Shown: one piece after another, positions 53,421 through 64,000 of the stretch
Position numbering within the stretch: position 1 is the first letter of the stretch
Layout: each line of letters opens with the position of its first letter
Origin: a virus
Direction: 5' to 3' (one strand)
Virus genome (UHGV): UHGV-0382128
Length of the DNA: 64,000 nt
Notes under the pieces: model-generated
Told to the model about the DNA's origin: nothing
Database searches by the model: none
What the model saw: only the letters and a program-made list of their open reading frames with translations
Position numbers and translations under genes: made by a program

Positions 53421-53879
53421 TCAGTACAAACACGATGTCAAGTATTGGTTATACGAATCGAGCAGTGCCTGACGGTCGGAACGGTAATTCCACAACAAAT
53501 TATTGAGTTTACGCGATAAATCACGGCTAATCTCCTGGGCCGTTAAAGAGCTCTCATCAAGAAACATGCGCTCAGGTACAACGTGTAATTTCGGTAACTC
53601 ATAGCGTTCACAAAGTGGAGCCAACATTGGTGGACTCCAGCCACGTTTAGCGGCTTGCTGGTTTAAATTTCGTGTGTAGACATAAACGTAATAAGCATAG
53701 GTGTTGACATCTGCAACATACTCACGCATTGCATTCTTGTCAATTTTCCAATTCACCATTATTGGCGGTTCAGGAGGAAGTTCCAGTGGTCTATAAGCTG
53801 GACGTTTAACTTCGTCACCGTAGCTATTACTCACCAACCCCACGAACACTACCATGATGAATAATAGCATTTTCATCAA
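53421..53879 (-). CDS. Secreted/periplasmic protein with N-terminal signal peptide (152 aa)
   Basis: MMKMLLFIMVVFVGLVSNSYG|DEV: hydrophobic core and small residues at -3/-1; no lipobox Cys. Confidence 0.5.
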   Translation of the reverse strand: MMKMLLFIMVVFVGLVSNSYGDEVKRPAYRPLELPPEPPIMVNWKIDKNAMREYVADVNTYAYYVYVYTRNLNQQAAKRGWSPPMLAPLCERYELPKLHVVPERMFLDESSLTAQEISRDLSRKLNNLLWNYRSDRQALLDSYNQYLTSCLY

Positions 53880-54383
53880 TCACTCCTTAGAAGACGATAG
53901 CGTCTTTATGATCTCCTGTCGAAAACTGTTCGCGTTTAAATTACCAACAGGTCTCGCCGAAGCCTCTTTACGTTGTTCTGGTGTTGAAGCCGGATTAACA
54001 GGAGTTTCTGGTTTTGCCGAGGACAGATCCTTCGTCGTACCGCTCGCTTTCGATGAATTAAACGTGCTTTCATATGGCGGTTTCTGGCCGAGGCAAACGA
54101 AGAGTCTGTCGTATAACTTATCATTATCTTCTTTTAGTTTATCTCGATCTTGTTTCATCTCTTGGTAAGACTGTGACATATAAGTGTCATGAGACTGCAC
54201 TGCAACGAGCGCGTGAAACTGTTGTACATAGGCGTAGGAGACGAAGCCAGAATACGACAACAAGATCGTGATGATTAAAGTCATTATCTTGCTTGCTCTT
54301 GATACGTTTTCTCCTTCTCCTGGTTTAAATGCTTCCATTAACATCTGAAGGAAGAACGGAAGCACTTTAAAAAATGAACCCAT
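53880..54383 (-). CDS. Membrane protein with one N-terminal TM helix and charged periplasmic/coiled-coil-like domain (167 aa); i-spanin-like
   Basis: TM segment IMTLIITILLSYSGFVSYAYV, then KQDRDKLKEDNDKLYDRL; abuts the signal-peptide gene. Confidence 0.4.
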   Translation of the reverse strand: MGSFFKVLPFFLQMLMEAFKPGEGENVSRASKIMTLIITILLSYSGFVSYAYVQQFHALVAVQSHDTYMSQSYQEMKQDRDKLKEDNDKLYDRLFVCLGQKPPYESTFNSSKASGTTKDLSSAKPETPVNPASTPEQRKEASARPVGNLNANSFRQEIIKTLSSSKE

Positions 54384-58059: not shown

Positions 58060-58539
58060 TTAAAATAAAGGCAAGTTACGCCATTGTCCTACCGAGTAAA
58101 AAGCTTTTGGATGTTTACGGATATACGCTTTCGCTTCTTCTGGCAACCAACGGTCACCTACCAGTTTTTGTTGTGCAACAATTACTGCCATCAACAAATA
58201 CGGGTTTTTCGCACCGGGAAACTTTGCATTGGTTTCTAGCGCAATATCCAACATTGACGACCAGCCCAGTAATTTATGTTGCGCCGGTAAACGTTCTTCA
58301 ATATACATCAGCCACTTCATGATTTGTTTAGGCTTATACGGACAGGTATAATTCGCCCAACAGACCATGACGAACTTAATAGCCTTCGCAATCACCCATA
58401 CAGGGACAGTCACGAAAAGGCAGAAAATAGCCAACTGCGAGGCGGGCGCTTCGACAAAAGTAACCGCTACAAGAACCATACACAGTTCAAGTACCACAAA
58501 CCAAAAACGTGTCGGATAACGCCAAATGAATTTTATCAT
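58060..58539 (-). CDS. Membrane protein with two or three N-terminal TM helices (159 aa); holin-like candidate
   Basis: Hydrophobic FWFVVLELCMVLVAVTFV and LAIFCLFVTVPVWVIAKAIKFVMV; two genes upstream of the endolysin-like SLT gene. Confidence 0.4.
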   Translation of the reverse strand: MIKFIWRYPTRFWFVVLELCMVLVAVTFVEAPASQLAIFCLFVTVPVWVIAKAIKFVMVCWANYTCPYKPKQIMKWLMYIEERLPAQHKLLGWSSMLDIALETNAKFPGAKNPYLLMAVIVAQQKLVGDRWLPEEAKAYIRKHPKAFYSVGQWRNLPLF

Positions 58540-58605: not shown

Positions 58606-59115
58606 TTAGAAGAACGGCTGGTTTGGAATGACAGCGTACTCTAAAATGAACATGTGTTCTGGGGCGTCTTCTTTACGCCAGACTTTGTGTGTCGACACAA
58701 GTTTTTCCAGAATCGTTAAGAAACTGCGCTGGCAGTATGTGTTTTCACCAAGCAGTAGATTTTGAAGTTCTACAGTAGCGTCCATATACGCCTGTTTAAA
58801 GACTAAATTACGGTTATACTGCCCGGTAAAATTCCAAAGCAAGACTTTCCCTTCTTCGGTTTCTTTTACCGTTGGTCGTAAACCACAAATCCACAGTAAG
58901 GCAAGGTTGACGTTCCAGTCAAACTCTAAACCTTCTTCTTCGTCATCACCGAATGCTGTGGGTAAAGCATCGTAAAATTCGTGTTTCTCTGCGAATTCTT
59001 CATCCGACTTAATCTCGTCTTCGATACTGCTTCGGACGATACTGTAAACGTCTTTCGCGGTCAATTGTGCGGCTTTTGTAATGCCTTTATACCAATCGGT
59101 TACTACGATGCTCAA
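58606..59115 (-). CDS. Hypothetical protein (169 aa)
   Basis: ORF overlapping the SLT gene by 4 nt. Confidence 0.45.
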   Translation of the reverse strand: MSIVVTDWYKGITKAAQLTAKDVYSIVRSSIEDEIKSDEEFAEKHEFYDALPTAFGDDEEEGLEFDWNVNLALLWICGLRPTVKETEEGKVLLWNFTGQYNRNLVFKQAYMDATVELQNLLLGENTYCQRSFLTILEKLVSTHKVWRKEDAPEHMFILEYAVIPNQPFF

Positions 59116-59837
59116 AGGGTAACTCCTCTATTGATTGGAAAACTCGTGTTTATCGTATCCCAAATTCTACTAACTTCCGCCAGTTGAATCTGACGTGGTG
59201 TTTTCTTCGCAAACGCAAGCTGACGTGGGGCCGAGCCCACAACAACAGGCACATCGATTTTCGCGCTATAGAACGCGGCGTCTTTCATAAAGCCTGCCAT
59301 TTCTCGTTGTGCTGCTCGAGATTTGCTTTTGATTCGCGTGTGAGCGCCACTTTCACCCCAGTGGTAAGCTAACGCAATTTCAGCCATGGTGGGCTTGCGT
59401 TTGAGTCGTTTGGTTAACCCCCTCTCAAGATGTTTAACATACGCGGCAGCCAGCAAAACAGCATTACGCGGATTATATAAATCGGCGTTCTGACTAAGAC
59501 CTAATTCTTTTCCATAAAGCCTTAGCAGATTACGCTTGGTACTTGGAAGCATCTGTACCAGGCTGTGTGCTCGTGAGCTTTTGTTGTAAGCCTTGGGATC
59601 AAAACGTGATTCGCGATAAATCAGCGTAATCATCAGCTTAGGATCAACGCCTTGCTTTCGTGAGATTTCCACAATTAACGGGCTGACTTTTTCGAACCGA
59701 TGTTGGATTTGTGCAAACTCACGCTGATGCTTAGAATGTGGCGTTGACGTTGACGCCTGTGCGTTAAACGCGAAAAGTGTTACCAGTAAAAGAAAGAAGA
59801 TACGAAACATTTTGTTTCTCCAGTTGGATTTATACAT
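59112..59837 (-). CDS. Signal-peptide-bearing lytic transglycosylase (SLT domain), endolysin candidate (241 aa)
   Basis: N-terminal MFRIFFLLLVTLFAFNAQAS; SLT core LIYRESRFDPKAYNKSSRAHSLVQMLPST...LLAAAYVKHL (catalytic Glu-Ser and the SxxGxxQ block). Confidence 0.7.
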   Translation of the reverse strand: MYKSNWRNKMFRIFFLLLVTLFAFNAQASTSTPHSKHQREFAQIQHRFEKVSPLIVEISRKQGVDPKLMITLIYRESRFDPKAYNKSSRAHSLVQMLPSTKRNLLRLYGKELGLSQNADLYNPRNAVLLAAAYVKHLERGLTKRLKRKPTMAEIALAYHWGESGAHTRIKSKSRAAQREMAGFMKDAAFYSAKIDVPVVVGSAPRQLAFAKKTPRQIQLAEVSRIWDTINTSFPINRGVTL

Positions 59838-59910: not shown

Positions 59911-60471
59911 CTATTTAAAAGAGTTTGGAATTAATGACTCTGCTTCTTGGTACAACTTATCAGGTAAGTATAACGTGTAGCACTGCCTCCTCGGTTCAAG
60001 TTTTTTGTAAAGCCACAAAAAGATTTCTTGTCTTTCCCAGGAATCTAACCACCCATTTGCCATTCCCAGTGGAGGGATAGCAACGCTGGTATTCAGATCC
60101 TCAGCACAGTCTGCTAGTGCGCTAATGCCCGCAGTAACATAAGAAACCTGTGACTTTAAACGCCAATGGGTTTTCGTGGGGAGCAAGATACACTTTTCAT
60201 CAGAGTAAACGTAAACGCTTCCAATCTTAATTTCGTCTTCACGACACCGCTTACGATAATCCTGATAAAGGTTGGGGTAGCGTTCACGGCACGCCAGTGC
60301 AATACCGCGACCCATCGCTCCTACGCAGTTAATGGTAACGACTTTATAGTCTTCGGGTGCATTAAAAAGATCGTTACCAATTTCAGATTCTTTACGTACC
60401 GTTAACATAACGAAACGTCCGGAGTTGGTGTGTAGTATTAAAACGTGTACCGCCGATTGATAGCTCGACAA
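59911..60471 (-). CDS. Putative macro-domain (ADP-ribose binding/processing) protein (186 aa)
   Basis: VVTINCVGAMGRGIALACRERYP (glycine-rich loop as in macro domains) and later VAIPPLGMANGWL; by eye only. Confidence 0.45.
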   Translation of the reverse strand: MSSYQSAVHVLILHTNSGRFVMLTVRKESEIGNDLFNAPEDYKVVTINCVGAMGRGIALACRERYPNLYQDYRKRCREDEIKIGSVYVYSDEKCILLPTKTHWRLKSQVSYVTAGISALADCAEDLNTSVAIPPLGMANGWLDSWERQEIFLWLYKKLEPRRQCYTLYLPDKLYQEAESLIPNSFK

Positions 60472-61132: not shown

Positions 61133-61582
61133 TTAGAATGTTTTGCTAAAATCGACCCACTCACGATCGTGCGAGTAAACCGCCTGATAGCCGCGTCGGA
61201 TGAAATACTCTTTTGCTTCTTTACATTTCGCATACATGCCAGTAACAATCTCACCGAAAACTTCATCAGCTGCAATTGCTTTGAAAATCTCTTTCATTAC
61301 ACCCCGTTGACGATAGTCTGGGAGCACGTATACCGAACGTATCTTAAGTGAACCGTTACGATTCCGATAACTACAGTATCCTACCGCGACATCATCCTGA
61401 TACACCAGAACTATGCAGTTACCTTCGATCAGCTGTCGCGCATTTAACTTCGGCACCGACGTTTTGATTTTCAGTAACGTGGCCTGGTGGTCTAAGTAAC
61501 GGTAGTGTAGTTTGAGTAAATCGGCAGCTTGTCGCTCACCGACTTTAGAAGATGCGTTCAACAAATAAATTTCCATTTGCAA
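61133..61582 (-). CDS. GNAT-family N-acetyltransferase (149 aa)
   Basis: Motif A-like IRSVYVLPDYRQRGVMKEIFKAI. Confidence 0.55.
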   Translation of the reverse strand: MQMEIYLLNASSKVGERQAADLLKLHYRYLDHQATLLKIKTSVPKLNARQLIEGNCIVLVYQDDVAVGYCSYRNRNGSLKIRSVYVLPDYRQRGVMKEIFKAIAADEVFGEIVTGMYAKCKEAKEYFIRRGYQAVYSHDREWVDFSKTF

Positions 61583-61608
61583 ACCTTAGAGACGCAAAAA
61601 AAGTAAAA

Positions 61609-61737
61609 TTAAAACCAACGCGCGATGACGAATGCCGCAGCGGCTAATATGGCCGTGGTGATTATTAATCCACCCCATGAAAGTTCCGCATCGTATAATG
61701 CGGATATCGCTACATTCGTAGTGTTTATCGAGGTCAT
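61609..61737 (-). CDS. Small hydrophobic peptide (~41 aa), not in the ORF track
   Basis: Hand translation MTSINTTNVAISALYDAELSWGGLIITTAILAAAAFVIARWF with SD aggagc; coordinates approximate. Confidence 0.3.
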   Translation of the reverse strand: MTSINTTNVAISALYDAELSWGGLIITTAILAAAAFVIARWF

Positions 61738-61794
61738 TTTCTGCTCCTAGTAATACCCTCACGCCGGAGGGTATCTTCTGGATTATTTGGGTGG

Positions 61795-61893
61795 TTAATC
61801 TTCGAACGCCCAACGGTGTCGTTTAATCAGCCAGTTTAAACCTTTACCAATTAACCACAACGAGCCAAGTGTTAACAGAACCCCTACAACCAT
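61795..61893 (-). CDS. Small hydrophobic peptide (~32 aa), not in the ORF track
   Basis: Hand translation MVVGVLLTLGSLWLIGKGLNWLIKRHRWAFED with SD aggagaggg; coordinates approximate. Confidence 0.3.
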   Translation of the reverse strand: MVVGVLLTLGSLWLIGKGLNWLIKRHRWAFED

Positions 61894-61903
61894 ATTCCCT
61901 CTC

Positions 61904-62083
61904 CTAATTCCGCCATTCGCATTCGCGTTGACGCCAAATTGAACCCCACGATAGTTTAATCAGATAAGATGAAACTACCCATAAAATCATCACCACACAA
62001 AACATGACATAAAGAACCGCTAGAATGGACATGAAGCCAAACCCTGCCGCATCCACAATACGACGGAACCAATCAGTTTGCAT
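61904..62083 (-). CDS. Small membrane protein (~59 aa)
   Basis: Track ORF 61904..62089 begins at a TTG; ATG at 62083 (MQTDWFRRIVD...) has SD aggag. TM FGFMSILAVLYVMFCVVMILWVV. Confidence 0.35.
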   Translation of the reverse strand: MQTDWFRRIVDAAGFGFMSILAVLYVMFCVVMILWVVSSYLIKLSWGSIWRQRECEWRN

Positions 62084-64000
62084 AAACAATTTTTACTCCT
62101 TCGTTATACACCGCAGGCAATGTCACTCCTTCCGGTTCGATGACACAGTACGATGCTTCATTAAGTTTAGAATGGACCTCAGCTTCGTGGGAAACTACCA
62201 AGAGTTGTGAAAATTCTCCCGAGTTTGCTAACGTTTTAATAAAGCCGACCAGGTTATTACGGTGTTCCTCGTCCATGCCTTCCGAAGGCTCATCCAAAAG
62301 CAACGGAAACTGATGCAACTTCAGCGCTTTGTACGCAGTCAGTCTGAACATCAGATTAAATATAGCACGCTGTGCCTTAGACCCTTTACGCACGTCAGGA
62401 ACAGGCTCAGGGTGCGTTTTTAGCTGGACAGGAAAAGTATAATCCAAATCGCCGTCAGTGAGATCACAGGGCATAACACGCATGGGGTACGTCCAGACCT
62501 GTTCGATATAACGCGTCATTAACTCTGTGATTCTAACGATAGCGTTGTAAAAATACTTTCTAAGTACACCCTTTTCTGGCGAGAAGGCTTGAATCATCAG
62601 TTTGTTATTGAACTGCTGGGCTTGTAAGTCAGCAAGTTCACGTTCCAAACTGTTGAGTTGGTTCAATTCATTTTCCATCTGACGATAACGCTCGCGTGCG
62701 GTTGTAAAAGCATCCAGCTTCCCTTCCCGCACTCGTAAGAGTTCCTCGACGACCGTATTTGTCAACGTAACCTTAACATCACTCTCTAACCGTTCGAATA
62801 ACGCACTGAAATCATCTACAGCACGTTTAACATTCACTAGATAGGTAAGTGTCGTGTTAGCCAGTTCGTGCTCTCTACGACGCATTGAGAGCATCTCTGT
62901 GGCTTTACCTAATCGCGACTGTTGGAAGGCGATTTTCTGTTGTAAAGCACCATCGACGTTACCAACGGCCGCTACGGCATCCTGCCATTCTTTTTCCGCT
63001 TTCACTAACCGTTGTCGGGTTTCATGGTACTCAATAGCAGAGTACAATTCACCGTCAAACGCTGCACATAGACTCCCGAACTGCTCGCGAGATTCTGTGA
63101 AAACGTTACGTTCTTGCAAACGCTTAAAGAACATGCTCAATATCGGGTCCTTTGAATACGTCAGCACAATCTCACGAACCTGCCGCATATAAGTTACATC
63201 AGATTCTAATTCAACACGATCGCGTAATAAGGTCTCTAGCTGTGTTTGAAGTTCCGTCCGTTGCTGCTGTTGACCACGAATCGATGACTCGAGTTCAGGT
63301 AAAGAACGCGTAACACCTGGCCGAAACTTAAACCGACACTGCGGACAATCCACTTCTGCCGTTTCTAAGTAGTGGTTACGTTCGTGATTTAAATTCTGTA
63401 AAACGTTCTCCACTCGCTGGAGTCTATCCCGTAATCCTGCGGTTTTTTGATCCATCACCAGAAGACGTTCTTCCAAAACATTGAGTTTCTCGGTTGAATG
63501 AATAGCGTCCAGTGTTGTTCCCAACCGTTGTCCCCAAACACGCGCATCGGTAGCCGCACGAAGTTGGTCTAAATTAACGTTATCGTTAAATAAACCTGGA
63601 AAGAGATGTTCGGTGTCCCACTTGGTAAGTAACTCACGTAAACGTGCCAGTGTGTTCTTGAGACCTTCGTGGTTCCGCATCAGGTAGTCTTGTCGTGTTG
63701 ACTCATCCATCAATAGCGATAAATCTTTATTCAACATCGATACCTCTGTTTCGGTAGAAACGACGGCTTCGCGGGCTGTCGCTTCATTTTGTCGGGCGGC
63801 CAGTATCTGTTCATCAGTAGGCAACCCACCACGATGTTGTAATATTGCGTCGATGGTTGGACCCAAACCGTTTAATAACGCTTGGATTGTTTCGATCGTG
63901 ACAGCACGATTTAATCCTGGCAACTGTTCGATTTCTCGGTTCAGTTCACGTAAATCCGATTCCAAACCTTTTAATCTCGTTGCTAATTGTTGTCGTTCTT
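62073..64000 (-). CDS. SbcC/Rad50-like recombination-repair ATPase, partial (N-terminus outside right edge)
   Basis: Long coiled-coil with zinc-hook-like CPQC (DCPQCRFKF), C-terminal FPLLLDEPSEGMD (Walker B/D-loop). Reading frame is open from 64000; the track start at 63965 is a TTG. Confidence 0.6.
   Translation of the reverse strand, partial: ERQQLATRLKGLESDLRELNREIEQLPGLNRAVTIETIQALLNGLGPTIDAILQHRGGLPTDEQILAARQNEATAREAVVSTETEVSMLNKDLSLLMDESTRQDYLMRNHEGLKNTLARLRELLTKWDTEHLFPGLFNDNVNLDQLRAATDARVWGQRLGTTLDAIHSTEKLNVLEERLLVMDQKTAGLRDRLQRVENVLQNLNHERNHYLETAEVDCPQCRFKFRPGVTRSLPELESSIRGQQQQRTELQTQLETLLRDRVELESDVTYMRQVREIVLTYSKDPILSMFFKRLQERNVFTESREQFGSLCAAFDGELYSAIEYHETRQRLVKAEKEWQDAVAAVGNVDGALQQKIAFQQSRLGKATEMLSMRRREHELANTTLTYLVNVKRAVDDFSALFERLESDVKVTLTNTVVEELLRVREGKLDAFTTARERYRQMENELNQLNSLERELADLQAQQFNNKLMIQAFSPEKGVLRKYFYNAIVRITELMTRYIEQVWTYPMRVMPCDLTDGDLDYTFPVQLKTHPEPVPDVRKGSKAQRAIFNLMFRLTAYKALKLHQFPLLLDEPSEGMDEEHRNNLVGFIKTLANSGEFSQLLVVSHEAEVHSKLNEASYCVIEPEGVTLPAVYNEGVKIVYAN

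What the first reader, a model, noticed from the sequence alone, without database searches (positions are those of the whole stretch)
61600..62090. Cluster of three small hydrophobic peptides downstream of the SbcC-like gene
Three short minus-strand ORFs (~59, ~32 and ~41 aa), each with an SD and a predicted TM helix, sit in what the track shows as a gap or as a doubtful 75-aa ORF in another frame. Small membrane peptides in phage accessory regions often act as membrane-targeting host-takeover, superinfection-exclusion or lysis-timing factors.
Basis: seen in the sequence. Interest (0 to 1): 0.4.

Follow-up and report, generated by a model that had tools for sequence, protein, structure and literature searches.

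The report
Three small jumbo-phage membrane peptide genes
Three tiny genes just after the SbcC-like recombination gene of this jumbo phage are real, conserved and encode membrane-spanning peptides, but they belong to hypothetical-protein families already seen in SPN3US-like phages and their function is still untested.

Summary
On the minus strand lie ORF A (61904-62089, 61 aa from TTG or 59 aa from ATG), ORF B (61795-61893, 32 aa) and ORF C (61609-61737, 42 aa). Each has an exact AGGAG 6-7 nt before its start and one hydrophobic helix. They are the only three 30-70 aa ORFs in the 64-kb window with such a ribosome-binding site. All three are intact in 8 near-identical genomes and conserved under purifying selection (dN/dS 0.08-0.31 against a relative with ~90% identical SbcC). 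They have homologues at the same position in Salmonella SPN3US-like and Erwinia jumbo phages (A = SPN3US gp187/phrog_16515; B = phrog_13448; C = SPN3US gp189). The rival 75-aa frame is not conserved, not hydrophobic and lacks a ribosome-binding site. The three form a reduced version of a clade-specific, tightly overlapping cassette of small membrane peptides (A, B constant; X, C, D variable). The families occur only on 220-250 kb phage contigs and match no known functional family. The published idea that gp187 anchors SbcCD to the membrane finds little support: 3 of 14 lineages have a membrane protein after SbcC, and there is no homology to T4 gp47.1. Function remains inferred: accessory inner-membrane peptides, possibly for lysis timing or exclusion. 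This is ordinary and of low to moderate interest.

The parts
61904..62089 (-). ORF A: 61 aa from TTG 62089, or 59 aa from ATG 62083. It is a single long hydrophobic helix with a charged C-terminal tail (…RQRECEWRN). It is the orthologue of SPN3US gp187, Asesino gp208 and phiEaH2 gp111, and belongs to phrog_16515.
   Evidence: ORF and sequence. PHROG match E=1.2e-4. Profile search found 35 clusters, all consistent with SPN3US-like jumbo phages (long contigs 220-250 kb), with an identical 59-aa protein on 188 contigs. dN/dS against L009 is 0.31. Intact in 8 close genomes, with 5 synonymous and 2 non-synonymous variant codons. AF2 models one helix over residues 4-59, pLDDT 81. Start codon: ATG is ACG in L009/L010, where TTG is kept, whereas STsAS keeps the ATG and has TCA at the TTG position. 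The window has both.
61795..61893 (-). ORF B: 32 aa, MVVGVLLTLGSLWLIGKGLNWLIKRHRWAFED. It has an N-terminal hydrophobic helix starting at residue 2 and a basic/aromatic juxtamembrane tail (W..IK..xWAF). It belongs to phrog_13448 and is the orthologue of Machina gp199 and SPFM17_00186. It is unannotated in SPN3US and Asesino.
   Evidence: ORF. PHROG match E=6.6e-14. Alignment with 12 relatives. The family has only 12 clusters at 90% identity and 8 at 50% identity among 1.84 billion representatives. dN/dS against L009 is 0.30. AF2 models a helix over residues 2-25, pLDDT 88.
61609..61737 (-). ORF C: 42 aa, MTSINTTNVAISALYDAELSWGGLIITTAILAAAAFVIARWF. It has a polar N-terminal 20 residues with invariant T2, N5, N8, Y15 and W21, then a C-terminal TM helix ending in RWF. 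It is the orthologue of SPN3US gp189 and STsAS_162. It has no PHROG.
   Evidence: ORF. Alignment of 15 homologues with 9 invariant columns. Profile search. dN/dS against L009 is 0.08. There are 7 synonymous and 3 non-synonymous variant codons in 8 close genomes. Hessa sum -2.54.
62096..62100 (-). Shine-Dalgarno AGGAG for ORF A. It is embedded in the conserved C-terminal codons (E-G-V) of the SbcC-like gene.
61901..61905 (-). Shine-Dalgarno AGGAG for ORF B. It overlaps the TAG stop of ORF A.
61744..61748 (-). Shine-Dalgarno AGGAG for ORF C.
61752..61775 (-). A 9-bp RNA hairpin (GAUACCCUC-CGGCGU-GAGGGUAUU) in the 57-nt B-C spacer, at the place where relatives carry the 2-TM gene 'X'. An outer 5-bp helix can pair with part of C's SD. 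It is not followed by a U-run in the window.
   Evidence: Fold energy is -15.8 kcal/mol with z=-2.4. The L009 lineage has a different 9-bp hairpin at the same place (-21.1 kcal/mol, z=-3.2). The terminator scan did not call it.
62073..64000 (-). The 3' two-thirds of the SbcC/Rad50-like SMC ATPase gene, cut by the window end; homologues are ~836 aa. The cassette is translationally coupled to its stop codon.
   Evidence: (phrog_77 SbcC-like, E=1.6e-58)

Best explanation
What it is (shown). ORFs A, B and C are three genuine, efficiently translated genes. Each encodes a single-helix, inner-membrane-type peptide.
- Together they are this lineage's reduced version of a small-membrane-peptide cassette found directly after the SbcC-like gene in one clade of chimallin-encoding jumbo phages. 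That clade comprises the Seoulvirus/SPN3US, Erskinevirus, Machinavirus and Wellingtonvirus genera and the uncultured ~224-kb enteric lineage the window belongs to.
- A and B are constant in the clade. A 2-TM peptide X, peptide C and peptide D come and go. The window has A-B-C and has lost X, D and a ~90-aa basic protein.
- In relatives the genes abut or overlap by 1-23 nt. In the window A overlaps the sbcC stop, and B's SD overlaps A's stop. They are therefore made from the sbcC transcript in coupled amounts.

How it probably works (inferred, not shown).
- The peptides insert into the host cytoplasmic membrane. B is most likely N-out/C-in, with its basic WAF tail at the inner face. A has its charged CEWR tail in the cytoplasm. 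C sits with only RWF beyond the helix.
- They act there, probably as a hetero-oligomer, as a phage-specific module that changes inner-membrane permeability or energisation. This would be a holin/antiholin-like lysis timer or an exclusion function.
- They are unlikely to take part in SbcC's DNA work.

My split of probability:
- Real genes for membrane peptides: ~0.95.
- Act on the envelope independently of SbcCD: ~0.7.
- Specifically permeability, lysis timing or exclusion: ~0.4.
For: Gene reality:
- Each has a unique AGGAG with good spacing, and these are the only three such small ORFs in the window.
- All are intact in 8 close genomes with a synonymous excess.
- dN/dS is 0.08-0.31 against L009.
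- Homologues lie at the same position in 10+ phages from four genera.
- PHROG matches support A and B.

Membrane character: hydrophobicity scales and AF2 single helices.

Coupling: measured gaps and overlaps between the genes.

Clade restriction.

Envelope context on the same strand:
- An SLT transglycosylase with a classical Sec signal peptide (MYKSNWRNKMFRIFFLLLVTLFAFNAQA/S) lies at 59112-59837.
- A 159-aa protein with two N-terminal TM helices lies at 58060-58539.
- The sbcC-to-SLT neighbourhood is old. In Erwinia phage Joad the signal-peptide SLT directly follows sbcC, and in Vibrio phage pVp-JHP1101 it follows after three genes.
- In relatives, X has the architecture of a class II holin: 65-70 aa, 2 TM, a basic N-terminus and a charged C-terminus.

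Against an SbcC role:
- Only 3 of 14 chimallivirus lineages sampled have a TM protein right after sbcC.
- SPN3US encodes a chimallin homologue and shows a shell-like lattice, so its DNA metabolism is expected inside a protein shell, not at the membrane.
Against: - No experiment or homology assigns any function.
- Pfam gave no family match at E<=5 for A, B or C. The PHROG families are 'unknown function'.
- Five unrelated genes (GNAT, two hypotheticals, macro domain) separate the cassette from the SLT.
- A better positional holin candidate, the 2-TM 159-aa protein, lies two genes beyond the SLT.
- In phiKZ the proven holin, regulator, spanins and endolysin are contiguous, and the holin is a different type.
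- Phages with the same sbcC…SLT block but no small peptides exist, so the peptides are not needed for either neighbour in general.
- The SLT's signal peptide looks cleavable, so it may not be a holin-dependent endolysin at all.
- The conserved extramembrane motifs of B and C would fit specific binding to a host membrane protein equally well.
- B's hydrophobic segment is marginal for a full TM span.
Confidence: 0.55

Rival explanations
1. Small-protein regulators of specific host membrane proteins. A, B and C would each bind and inhibit or redirect a host inner-membrane transporter, protease, sensor kinase or division protein, in the manner of bacterial small proteins such as AcrZ, MgtS or MgrB. 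This is host takeover without any change in membrane permeability.
For: - Conservation is concentrated in extramembrane or interfacial motifs rather than in the hydrophobic core. B has an invariant A29, a near-invariant F30 and the W..IK..WAF tail. C has invariant T2, N5, N8, Y15 and W21 in its polar N-terminal part.
- The families are restricted to phages of enterobacterial hosts (Salmonella, Erwinia, E. coli/Shigella-labelled contigs).
- The variable membership (X, C, D) is as expected for host-specific accessory factors.
Against: - No target is known, and no similarity to any characterised small regulator was found.
- The tight translational coupling of 3-5 different peptides is more typical of subunits of one assembly than of independent regulators.
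Confidence: 0.25
2. Membrane tether for the phage SbcCD (Rad50/Mre11-like) nuclease. A, and perhaps B, would anchor SbcC at the inner membrane, as was proposed for T4 gp47.1 with gp46/47. Thomas et al. 2016 raised this for SPN3US gp187.
For: - A is always the first gene after sbcC in the clade. Its start overlaps or nearly abuts the sbcC stop (-17 to +4 nt), even in Wellington, where another gene has been inserted between A and B.
- Unrelated TM proteins also follow sbcC in CR5 and PhiPA3.
- The speculation is published in PMC5105663.
Against: - Eleven of 14 sampled lineages have no TM gene after sbcC: RAY, Goslar, phiKZ-like SL2, pVp-JHP1101, LucasX, Eowyn, Proteus 10, Joad, FBKp24, USC-1.
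- hhalign finds no homology of A, B or C to T4 gp47.1 (probability <1%). gp47.1 is a 46-aa 2-TM hairpin encoded upstream of gene 47 (the SbcD-like subunit), not downstream of gene 46.
- SbcD of SPN3US (gp27) is encoded far away.
- SPN3US encodes a chimallin homologue and shows a shell-like lattice, so replication and recombination are expected inside a protein-shelled nucleus.
- Tight gene packing is the rule in these genomes.
Confidence: 0.08
3. The small ORFs are chance open frames in a non-coding spacer, and/or the 75-aa ORF 61586..61813 in another frame is the real gene.
For: - Gene callers leave the B/C stretch empty in six public assemblies.
- C has no PHROG match.
- B's hydrophobic segment is short.
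Against: - All three frames are kept open with a synonymous excess in 8 close genomes, and at ~0.7-3 synonymous substitutions per site against L009.
- Homologues are annotated in other phages.
- The SD result points the same way.
- The 75-aa frame is broken in L009/L010 and changes start in L007/L008. It has no SD, no PHROG match and no hydrophobic segment.
Confidence: 0.02

Closest known systems
SPN3US gp187 / Asesino gp208 / phiEaH2 gp111 (phrog_16515, hypothetical protein)
   Same: It is homologous to ORF A (PHROG E=1.2e-4; profile hits down to 5e-24). It has the same size (57-66 aa), the same single long hydrophobic helix and the shared Y..FC and CEWR motifs. It holds the same position overlapping the sbcC stop.
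   Different: Identity is only 23-33% outside the window's own lineage. The start codon position differs between lineages (TTG/upstream start versus ATG). The Machinavirus/Wellingtonvirus versions lack the CEWR tail. No function is known for any member.
phrog_13448 (Machina gp199, SPFM17_00186, ChrisDB gp081; hypothetical protein)
   Same: It is homologous to ORF B (E=6.6e-14). Members are 32-46 aa with the same helix plus WAF tail, and they sit second in the cassette.
   Different: The window's B is the shortest form; it ends at …AFED and lacks the G-x-T tail. The family is unannotated in SPN3US and Asesino themselves. No function is known.
SPN3US gp189 / STsAS_162 (hypothetical protein, no PHROG)
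   Same: It is homologous to ORF C: 39-45% identity over the full length, 9 invariant columns, and the same polar-N/TM-C layout ending in W(L)F.
   Different: In Seoulvirus it follows the 2-TM gene X and is followed by D. In the window it follows a hairpin-containing spacer and is the last gene of the cassette. It is absent from the Erskinevirus, Machinavirus and Wellingtonvirus loci examined.
T4 gp47.1 (46-aa predicted membrane protein next to genes 46/47)
   Same: It is a tiny membrane protein encoded in the operon of the phage Rad50/Mre11-like nuclease. It has been discussed in print as an analogue of gp187.
   Different: There is no sequence or profile similarity (hhalign probability <1%). 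It is a 2-TM hairpin rather than a single helix. It lies upstream of the SbcD-like gene 47, not downstream of the SbcC-like gene.
Holins/antiholins: class II pinholin S21-68, T4 T/RI, and the phiKZ class III holin gp142 with regulator gp143
   Same: These are also small phage membrane proteins with charged tails that are made before lysis. Multi-gene sets of small TM proteins are typical of lysis control. A Sec-exported SLT enzyme is encoded nearby, in the same orientation.
   Different: ORFs A-C are not adjacent to the SLT gene. They match no holin family. They are smaller than any characterised holin: B is 32 aa and C is 42 aa. phiKZ's proven cassette is contiguous and uses a holin with a large cytoplasmic domain. 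No lethality or triggering data exist.
T4 Imm / Sp type superinfection-exclusion membrane proteins
   Same: They are small, phage-encoded inner-membrane proteins that are non-structural and sit in plastic genome regions.
   Different: There is no Pfam match at E<=5. Imm is 83 aa with 2 TM. Nothing is known about the expression timing of the cassette.

Membership tests
phrog_16515 / SPN3US gp187 family (ORF A) | Significant sequence/profile match | tested here: met
   hmmscan E=1.2e-4 covering residues 2-59 of 59. A profile of 9 relatives retrieves the window's protein and 34 other clusters.
phrog_16515 / SPN3US gp187 family (ORF A) | First gene after the SbcC-like gene, with its start overlapping or abutting the sbcC stop | tested here: met
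   The overlap is 17 nt in the window (from the TTG start). Relatives range from -17 to +4 nt.
phrog_13448 (ORF B) | Significant profile match and the conserved W..I(I/L)K..(G)WAF tail | tested here: met
   E=6.6e-14; alignments.
SPN3US gp189 family (ORF C) | Full-length alignable homology with the invariant MT..N..N…Y…W…A.F…F pattern | tested here: met
   Nine invariant columns in 15 sequences. Profile hits at E~1e-7.
Holin (any class) | At least one transmembrane domain | tested here: met
Holin (any class) | Match to a known holin family | tested here: not met
   No Pfam hit at E<=5. The PHROG hits are 'unknown function'.
Holin (any class) | Located in a lysis cassette, adjacent to the endolysin or spanin genes | tested here: not met
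   The SLT gene lies 1.8 kb and five genes downstream. No lipobox o-spanin candidate was found in the window.
Holin (any class) | Conserved dual-start motif giving holin and antiholin forms | tested here: not met
   The window's A has TTG-TTT-ATG (M-F-M). The two starts are not co-conserved: L009 lacks the ATG and STsAS lacks the TTG. No charged residue separates them.
Holin (any class) | Timed, PMF-sensitive lethality and endolysin release | not testable with these tools
   Needs expression and complementation assays.
T4 gp47.1-like SbcCD membrane partner | Sequence homology to gp47.1 | tested here: not met
   hhalign probability is 0.9%, 0.3% and 0.4% for A, B and C.
T4 gp47.1-like SbcCD membrane partner | Linkage of a small TM gene with the SbcC/SbcD genes across related phages | tested here: not met
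   Three of 14 chimallivirus lineages show it.
T4 gp47.1-like SbcCD membrane partner | Physical interaction with SbcCD | not testable with these tools
   No multimer prediction or experiment was available.
Superinfection-exclusion proteins (T4 Imm/Sp type) | Match to the Pfam families for these proteins | tested here: not met
   No Pfam hit at E<=5.

The most novel reading that the evidence does not exclude
A, B and C (with X and D in relatives) could be subunits of a new multi-peptide inner-membrane device of nucleus-forming jumbo phages. It might be a minimal pinholin-like depolarising timer that activates the Sec-exported SLT transglycosylase. Alternatively it might be a membrane dock that holds the SbcC-like nuclease at the inner membrane or at the early-infection vesicle. 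The evidence excludes neither reading. It argues mildly against the dock.
Probability: 0.12. Interest if true: 0.6.

Novelty: new member of a known kind. Interest (0 to 1): 0.25.

Why it matters
Practically, this shows that two of the three genes (32 and 42 aa) are routinely missed by gene callers in an abundant, uncultured ~224-kb enteric jumbo-phage lineage. B and D are also missing from the reference annotations of SPN3US and Asesino. The conserved small-membrane-protein content of these phages is therefore under-counted.

Biologically, how SPN3US-like jumbo phages lyse their hosts is not annotated in any of the records examined, and what chimalliviruses do at the host membrane is largely open. 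A clade-constant, translationally coupled set of membrane peptides next to a Sec-exported transglycosylase is a reasonable set of candidates to test. SPN3US has an amber-mutant genetic system in which that could be done.

As it stands this is a routine annotation result, not a discovery of a new mechanism.

Tried and rejected
1. Megablast of the region against phage records found no match. Searches against complete E. coli genomes and against plasmids also found none. The lineage exists only in metagenome/IMG-VR and draft assemblies.
2. Pfam at E<=5 for A, B and C returned nothing. X, which is absent from the window, gave only sub-threshold compositional hits (Cpta_toxin, DUF4131).
3. I considered whether C and D are paralogues because both end in W(L)F. 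hhalign rejects this (probability 0.5%).
4. I tested homology to T4 gp47.1 and rejected it.
5. I tested whether a small TM gene is linked to sbcC across chimalliviruses. It is not general (3 of 14 lineages).
6. I asked whether the long hydrophobic stretch of A is a 2-TM hairpin. AF2 gives one continuous helix, so I treat it as single-pass. AF2 is not membrane-aware, so this is weak.
7. I asked whether the B-C hairpin is an intrinsic terminator. The scan did not call it, and there is no U-run in the window lineage. L009 has a weak U-run.
8. I searched for X, D, the ~90-aa basic protein, or paralogues of A, B or C elsewhere in the window. There are none.
9. A lipobox/o-spanin scan of the window found no candidate.
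10. tRNA and Rfam scans of the window found nothing.
11. The 75-aa alternative frame was rejected.
12. Literature searches for SPN3US transcriptomics, holins or small membrane proteins found nothing specific beyond the gp187 remark.
Full report
**1. The observation**

On the minus strand, directly after the SbcC-like SMC ATPase gene (stop TGA 62075-62073), lie three consecutive small ORFs.
- ORF A is 61904..62089. It is 61 aa from TTG 62089, or 59 aa from ATG 62083.
- ORF B is 61795..61893, 32 aa.
- ORF C is 61609..61737, 42 aa.

Each has an exact AGGAG upstream: at 62100-62096, 61905-61901 and 61748-61744. The spacing is 6, 7 and 6 nt (12 nt for A's ATG).

I scanned both strands of the whole 64-kb window for ORFs of 30-70 aa with an exact AGGAG 4-9 nt upstream. 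The scan returned exactly three ORFs, and they are these three. By comparison, about a quarter of the long ORFs (15 of 60) carry AGGAG.

All three peptides have a hydrophobic helix.
- A: Hessa sum -3.96.
- C: -2.54.
- B: -1.24, which is marginal, because the fully apolar stretch is 15-16 residues and Lys17 sits inside the helix.

AlphaFold2 with family alignments gives one continuous helix for A (residues 4-59, pLDDT 81). For B it gives a helix over residues 2-25 (pLDDT 88).

The '75-aa ORF in another frame' is 61586..61813. It has no SD, no PHROG match and no hydrophobic segment.

**2. Source of the window**

The region has no near-identical match among deposited phages. At 65-73% nucleotide identity it matches the sbcC region of Erwinia jumbo phages (Asesino, phiEaH2, Machina, Wellington and others) and of Salmonella SPN3US-like phages.

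IMG/VR and public assemblies hold the same lineage.
- There are ~221-225-kb contigs, from near-identical to ones whose SbcC protein is 90% identical.
- The 59-aa form of A is found identically on 188 contigs.
- Some related proteins carry source labels such as Shigella flexneri, E. coli or Salmonella Chester.

The clade encodes chimallin. SPN3US gp244 is a diverged chimallin homologue, and infected cells show the matching square lattice (Laughlin et al. 2022).

**3. Coding evidence from relatives**

All three frames are open in eight close genomes. The distinct variant codons are mostly synonymous:

| ORF | Synonymous | Non-synonymous |
|---|---|---|
| A | 5 | 2 |
| B | 6 | 6 |
| C | 7 | 3 |

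Against the lineage whose SbcC protein is ~90% identical (L009/L010), synonymous sites are near saturation and dN/dS is 0.31 (A), 0.30 (B) and 0.08 (C).

In that lineage the 75-aa frame is broken into pieces of 32 aa or less. In L007 and L008 its start moves.

Homologues sit at the same position in every genus examined.
- A corresponds to SPN3US gp187, Asesino gp208, phiEaH2 gp111 and Machina gp198.
- B corresponds to Machina gp199 and SPFM17_00186. It is unannotated in SPN3US and Asesino.
- C corresponds to SPN3US gp189 and STsAS_162.

PHROG scans place A in phrog_16515 (E=1.2e-4) and B in phrog_13448 (E=6.6e-14), both of 'unknown function'. C and the 75-aa frame match nothing.

Gene callers used on six public assemblies of the window's lineage call A but leave the B/C stretch empty.

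**4. The start of ORF A**

The window has TTG-TTT-ATG.
- L009/L010 keep the TTG but have ACG in place of the ATG, and Asesino's gp208 is annotated from the same upstream position.
- STsAS has TCA at the TTG position and keeps the ATG.

Either start is therefore plausible in the window. SD spacing favours the TTG. The two starts are not co-conserved and no charged residue separates them, so this is not a holin-style dual start.

**5. Anatomy of the cassette across the clade**

The full set, as in SPN3US and STsAS, is sbcC-A-B-X-C-D, then a ~90-aa basic protein, then GNAT.
- X is a 65-70-aa peptide with 2 TM helices.
- D is a 35-aa peptide ending in ALTQGWF.

The composition varies by lineage.
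- Erskinevirus and Machinavirus have A-B-X-D.
- Wellington has A, an inserted 128-aa HExxH protein, B, two other TM ORFs, then D.
- The window's lineage has only A-B-C, followed directly by GNAT. No X, D, basic protein or paralogue is found elsewhere in the window.

In relatives, neighbouring genes overlap by 1-23 nt. In the window A overlaps sbcC by 17 nt, and B's SD overlaps A's stop codon.

Where X is missing, a 57-nt spacer carries a 9-bp hairpin at 61752-61775 (-15.8 kcal/mol, z=-2.4). The L009 lineage has a different 9-bp hairpin at the same place (-21.1 kcal/mol, z=-3.2).

C and D are not detectably related (hhalign probability 0.5%).

**6. How widespread the families are**

The families are very narrow.
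- B has 12 clusters at 90% identity in 5.8 billion proteins. It has 8 clusters at 50% identity among 1.84 billion representatives.
- A has 35 clusters, and C plus D have 19. Wherever a long contig is recorded it is 220-250 kb, and every named hit is an SPN3US-like phage or a host-labelled contig.
- Pfam at E<=5 finds nothing for A, B or C.

**7. Function: the SbcCD-tether hypothesis**

The only published statement is by Thomas et al. 2016 (PMC5105663). SPN3US gp186 (SbcC) is essential. gp187 is a 63-aa TM protein. By analogy with T4 gp47.1, it would be interesting to know where SbcCD sits in the cell. I tested this in two ways.

First, T4 gp47.1 (46 aa, MIFLGYVILFLAFYLFTRACWIGFFSTPDGFISIILFCISMTVLDI) shows no profile similarity to A, B or C (probability <1%). 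It is encoded upstream of the SbcD-like gene 47.

Second, I examined what follows sbcC in 14 chimallivirus lineages.
- A small TM gene follows it only in the SPN3US-like clade, in CR5 (an unrelated 113-aa 2-TM protein) and in PhiPA3 (gp191 and gp192).
- None follows it in RAY, Goslar, phiKZ-like SL2, Vibrio pVp-JHP1101, LucasX, Eowyn, Proteus phage 10, Joad, FBKp24 or USC-1.

Recombination in this family is also expected to take place inside a protein shell. I rate the tether idea at about 0.08.

**8. Function: envelope context**

Several envelope-related genes lie downstream on the same strand.
- GNAT at 61133-61582, two hypothetical genes, and a macro-domain protein at 59911-60471.
- An SLT transglycosylase at 59112-59837. 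Its N-terminus is a classical Sec signal: a basic n-region, the hydrophobic stretch FRIFFLLLVTLFAF, and the cleavage motif AQA/S.
- A 169-aa soluble protein.
- A 159-aa protein with two N-terminal TM helices at 58060-58539.

The sbcC-to-SLT neighbourhood is ancient. In Joad a homologous signal-peptide SLT (…APALA/STST) directly follows sbcC. In pVp-JHP1101 it follows after three genes that include the macro-domain gene. Neither phage has small peptides there.

The cassette therefore lies within a block that contains envelope-acting genes. It is neither adjacent to the SLT nor required for the block.

In phiKZ the experimentally defined lysis cassette is contiguous: i-spanin gp141, o-spanin gp141.1, class III holin gp142, regulator gp143 and endolysin gp144 (Manohar et al. 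2026, PMC12894885). By that precedent the 2-TM protein near the SLT is a better holin candidate than A, B or C.

**9. Best reading**

Shown:
- These are three real, strongly translated, purifying-selected genes for single-helix membrane peptides.
- They are made from the sbcC transcript in coupled fashion.
- They are members of a clade-specific, compositionally plastic cassette.

Inferred:
- They insert into the host inner membrane and act there as an accessory module.
- The most likely action is a change in permeability or energisation, meaning lysis timing or exclusion (~0.4).
- Otherwise they may be binders of specific host membrane proteins (~0.25).
- A role as an SbcCD tether is unlikely (~0.08).
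- The chance-ORF or 75-aa-frame alternative is effectively excluded (~0.02).

**10. Novelty and interest**

The peptides are new members of existing hypothetical-protein families (phrog_16515, phrog_13448 and the gp189 family). They are not a new kind of element.

Three modest points of value remain.
- B and C are missing from annotations.
- A and B are constant partners of sbcC across four genera.
- The lysis and membrane biology of SPN3US-like nucleus-forming phages is undefined, so these are testable candidates.

Interest is 0.25.

Noticed in passing
window 61752-61775 (minus strand), with outer pairing 61745-61782: A 9-bp hairpin lies in the B-C spacer. The L009/L010 lineage has a different 9-bp hairpin at the same place, ending in a GUAA tetraloop and followed by a short U-run. 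In the window an outer 5-bp helix can pair with G-G-A of ORF C's AGGAG. It might be an mRNA-stability or processing element or a translational modulator, left where gene X was lost.
   Followed up: partly
window 59112-59837 (minus); Joad locus L024 2413-3111; pVp-JHP1101 locus L016 4226+: The SLT 'endolysin' homologue (SPN3US gp198) carries a classical, apparently cleavable Sec signal peptide (…FAFNAQA/STST). A homologous signal-peptide SLT sits directly after sbcC in Erwinia phage Joad, and three genes after it in a Vibrio phage. The sbcC-SLT neighbourhood is therefore old. A freely secreted lytic transglycosylase is an odd endolysin.
   Followed up: partly
window 58060-58539 (minus): A 159-aa protein with two N-terminal TM helices and a ~90-aa soluble C-terminal part (phrog_20030, unknown function) lies two genes after the SLT gene. 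By position it is the best holin candidate in the window.
   Followed up: no
window 53880-54383 and 53421-53879 (minus): This is an adjacent gene pair. The first is a 167-aa protein with one TM helix at residues 33-49 (phrog_8719). The second is a 152-aa protein with an N-terminal signal peptide and a proline-rich start of the mature part (PLELPPEPP; phrog_8165). The layout resembles an i-spanin/o-spanin pair, but the second protein has no lipobox cysteine.
   Followed up: no
loci L027-L032 (ENA metagenome scaffolds and GCA_015624795.1), positions ~1680-2007; SPN3US JN641803 171,592-171,678 and ~171,985-172,092: Gene callers leave ORFs B and C uncalled in six ~224-kb public assemblies of this phage lineage. 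B and D are unannotated in the SPN3US reference, B in Asesino, and D in Machina. Small membrane peptide genes are systematically under-annotated in this clade.
   Followed up: yes
whole lineage (P0016, P0052, P0061, P0009, P0029): The phage lineage is common in public data. The identical ORF A protein is on 188 contigs (indexed in 289 blocks of the collection). A C homologue is on 565 contigs. Some records are deposited as Shigella flexneri, E. coli or Salmonella Chester proteins. This suggests jumbo-phage contigs inside bacterial isolate assemblies, from a carrier state or contamination. No match was found in complete E. coli genomes or in plasmids.
   Followed up: partly
Wellington locus L005 1923-2309 (minus): In Erwinia phage Wellington a 128-aa protein with an HExxH motif (…VAHEAVHAAW…) is inserted between the A and B homologues. 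Two further TM ORFs (46 aa and ~101-116 aa) follow B. This shows that the cassette is a site of gene gain.
   Followed up: no
P0043, P0047 (Salmonella phages SPFM12, SPFM6): Two annotated 67-aa proteins look like scrambled or permuted versions of the A peptide: the C-terminal CEWRD motif comes first and the N-terminal HHKGWRLWAWW comes later. They are probably annotation or assembly artefacts, or a local rearrangement.
   Followed up: no
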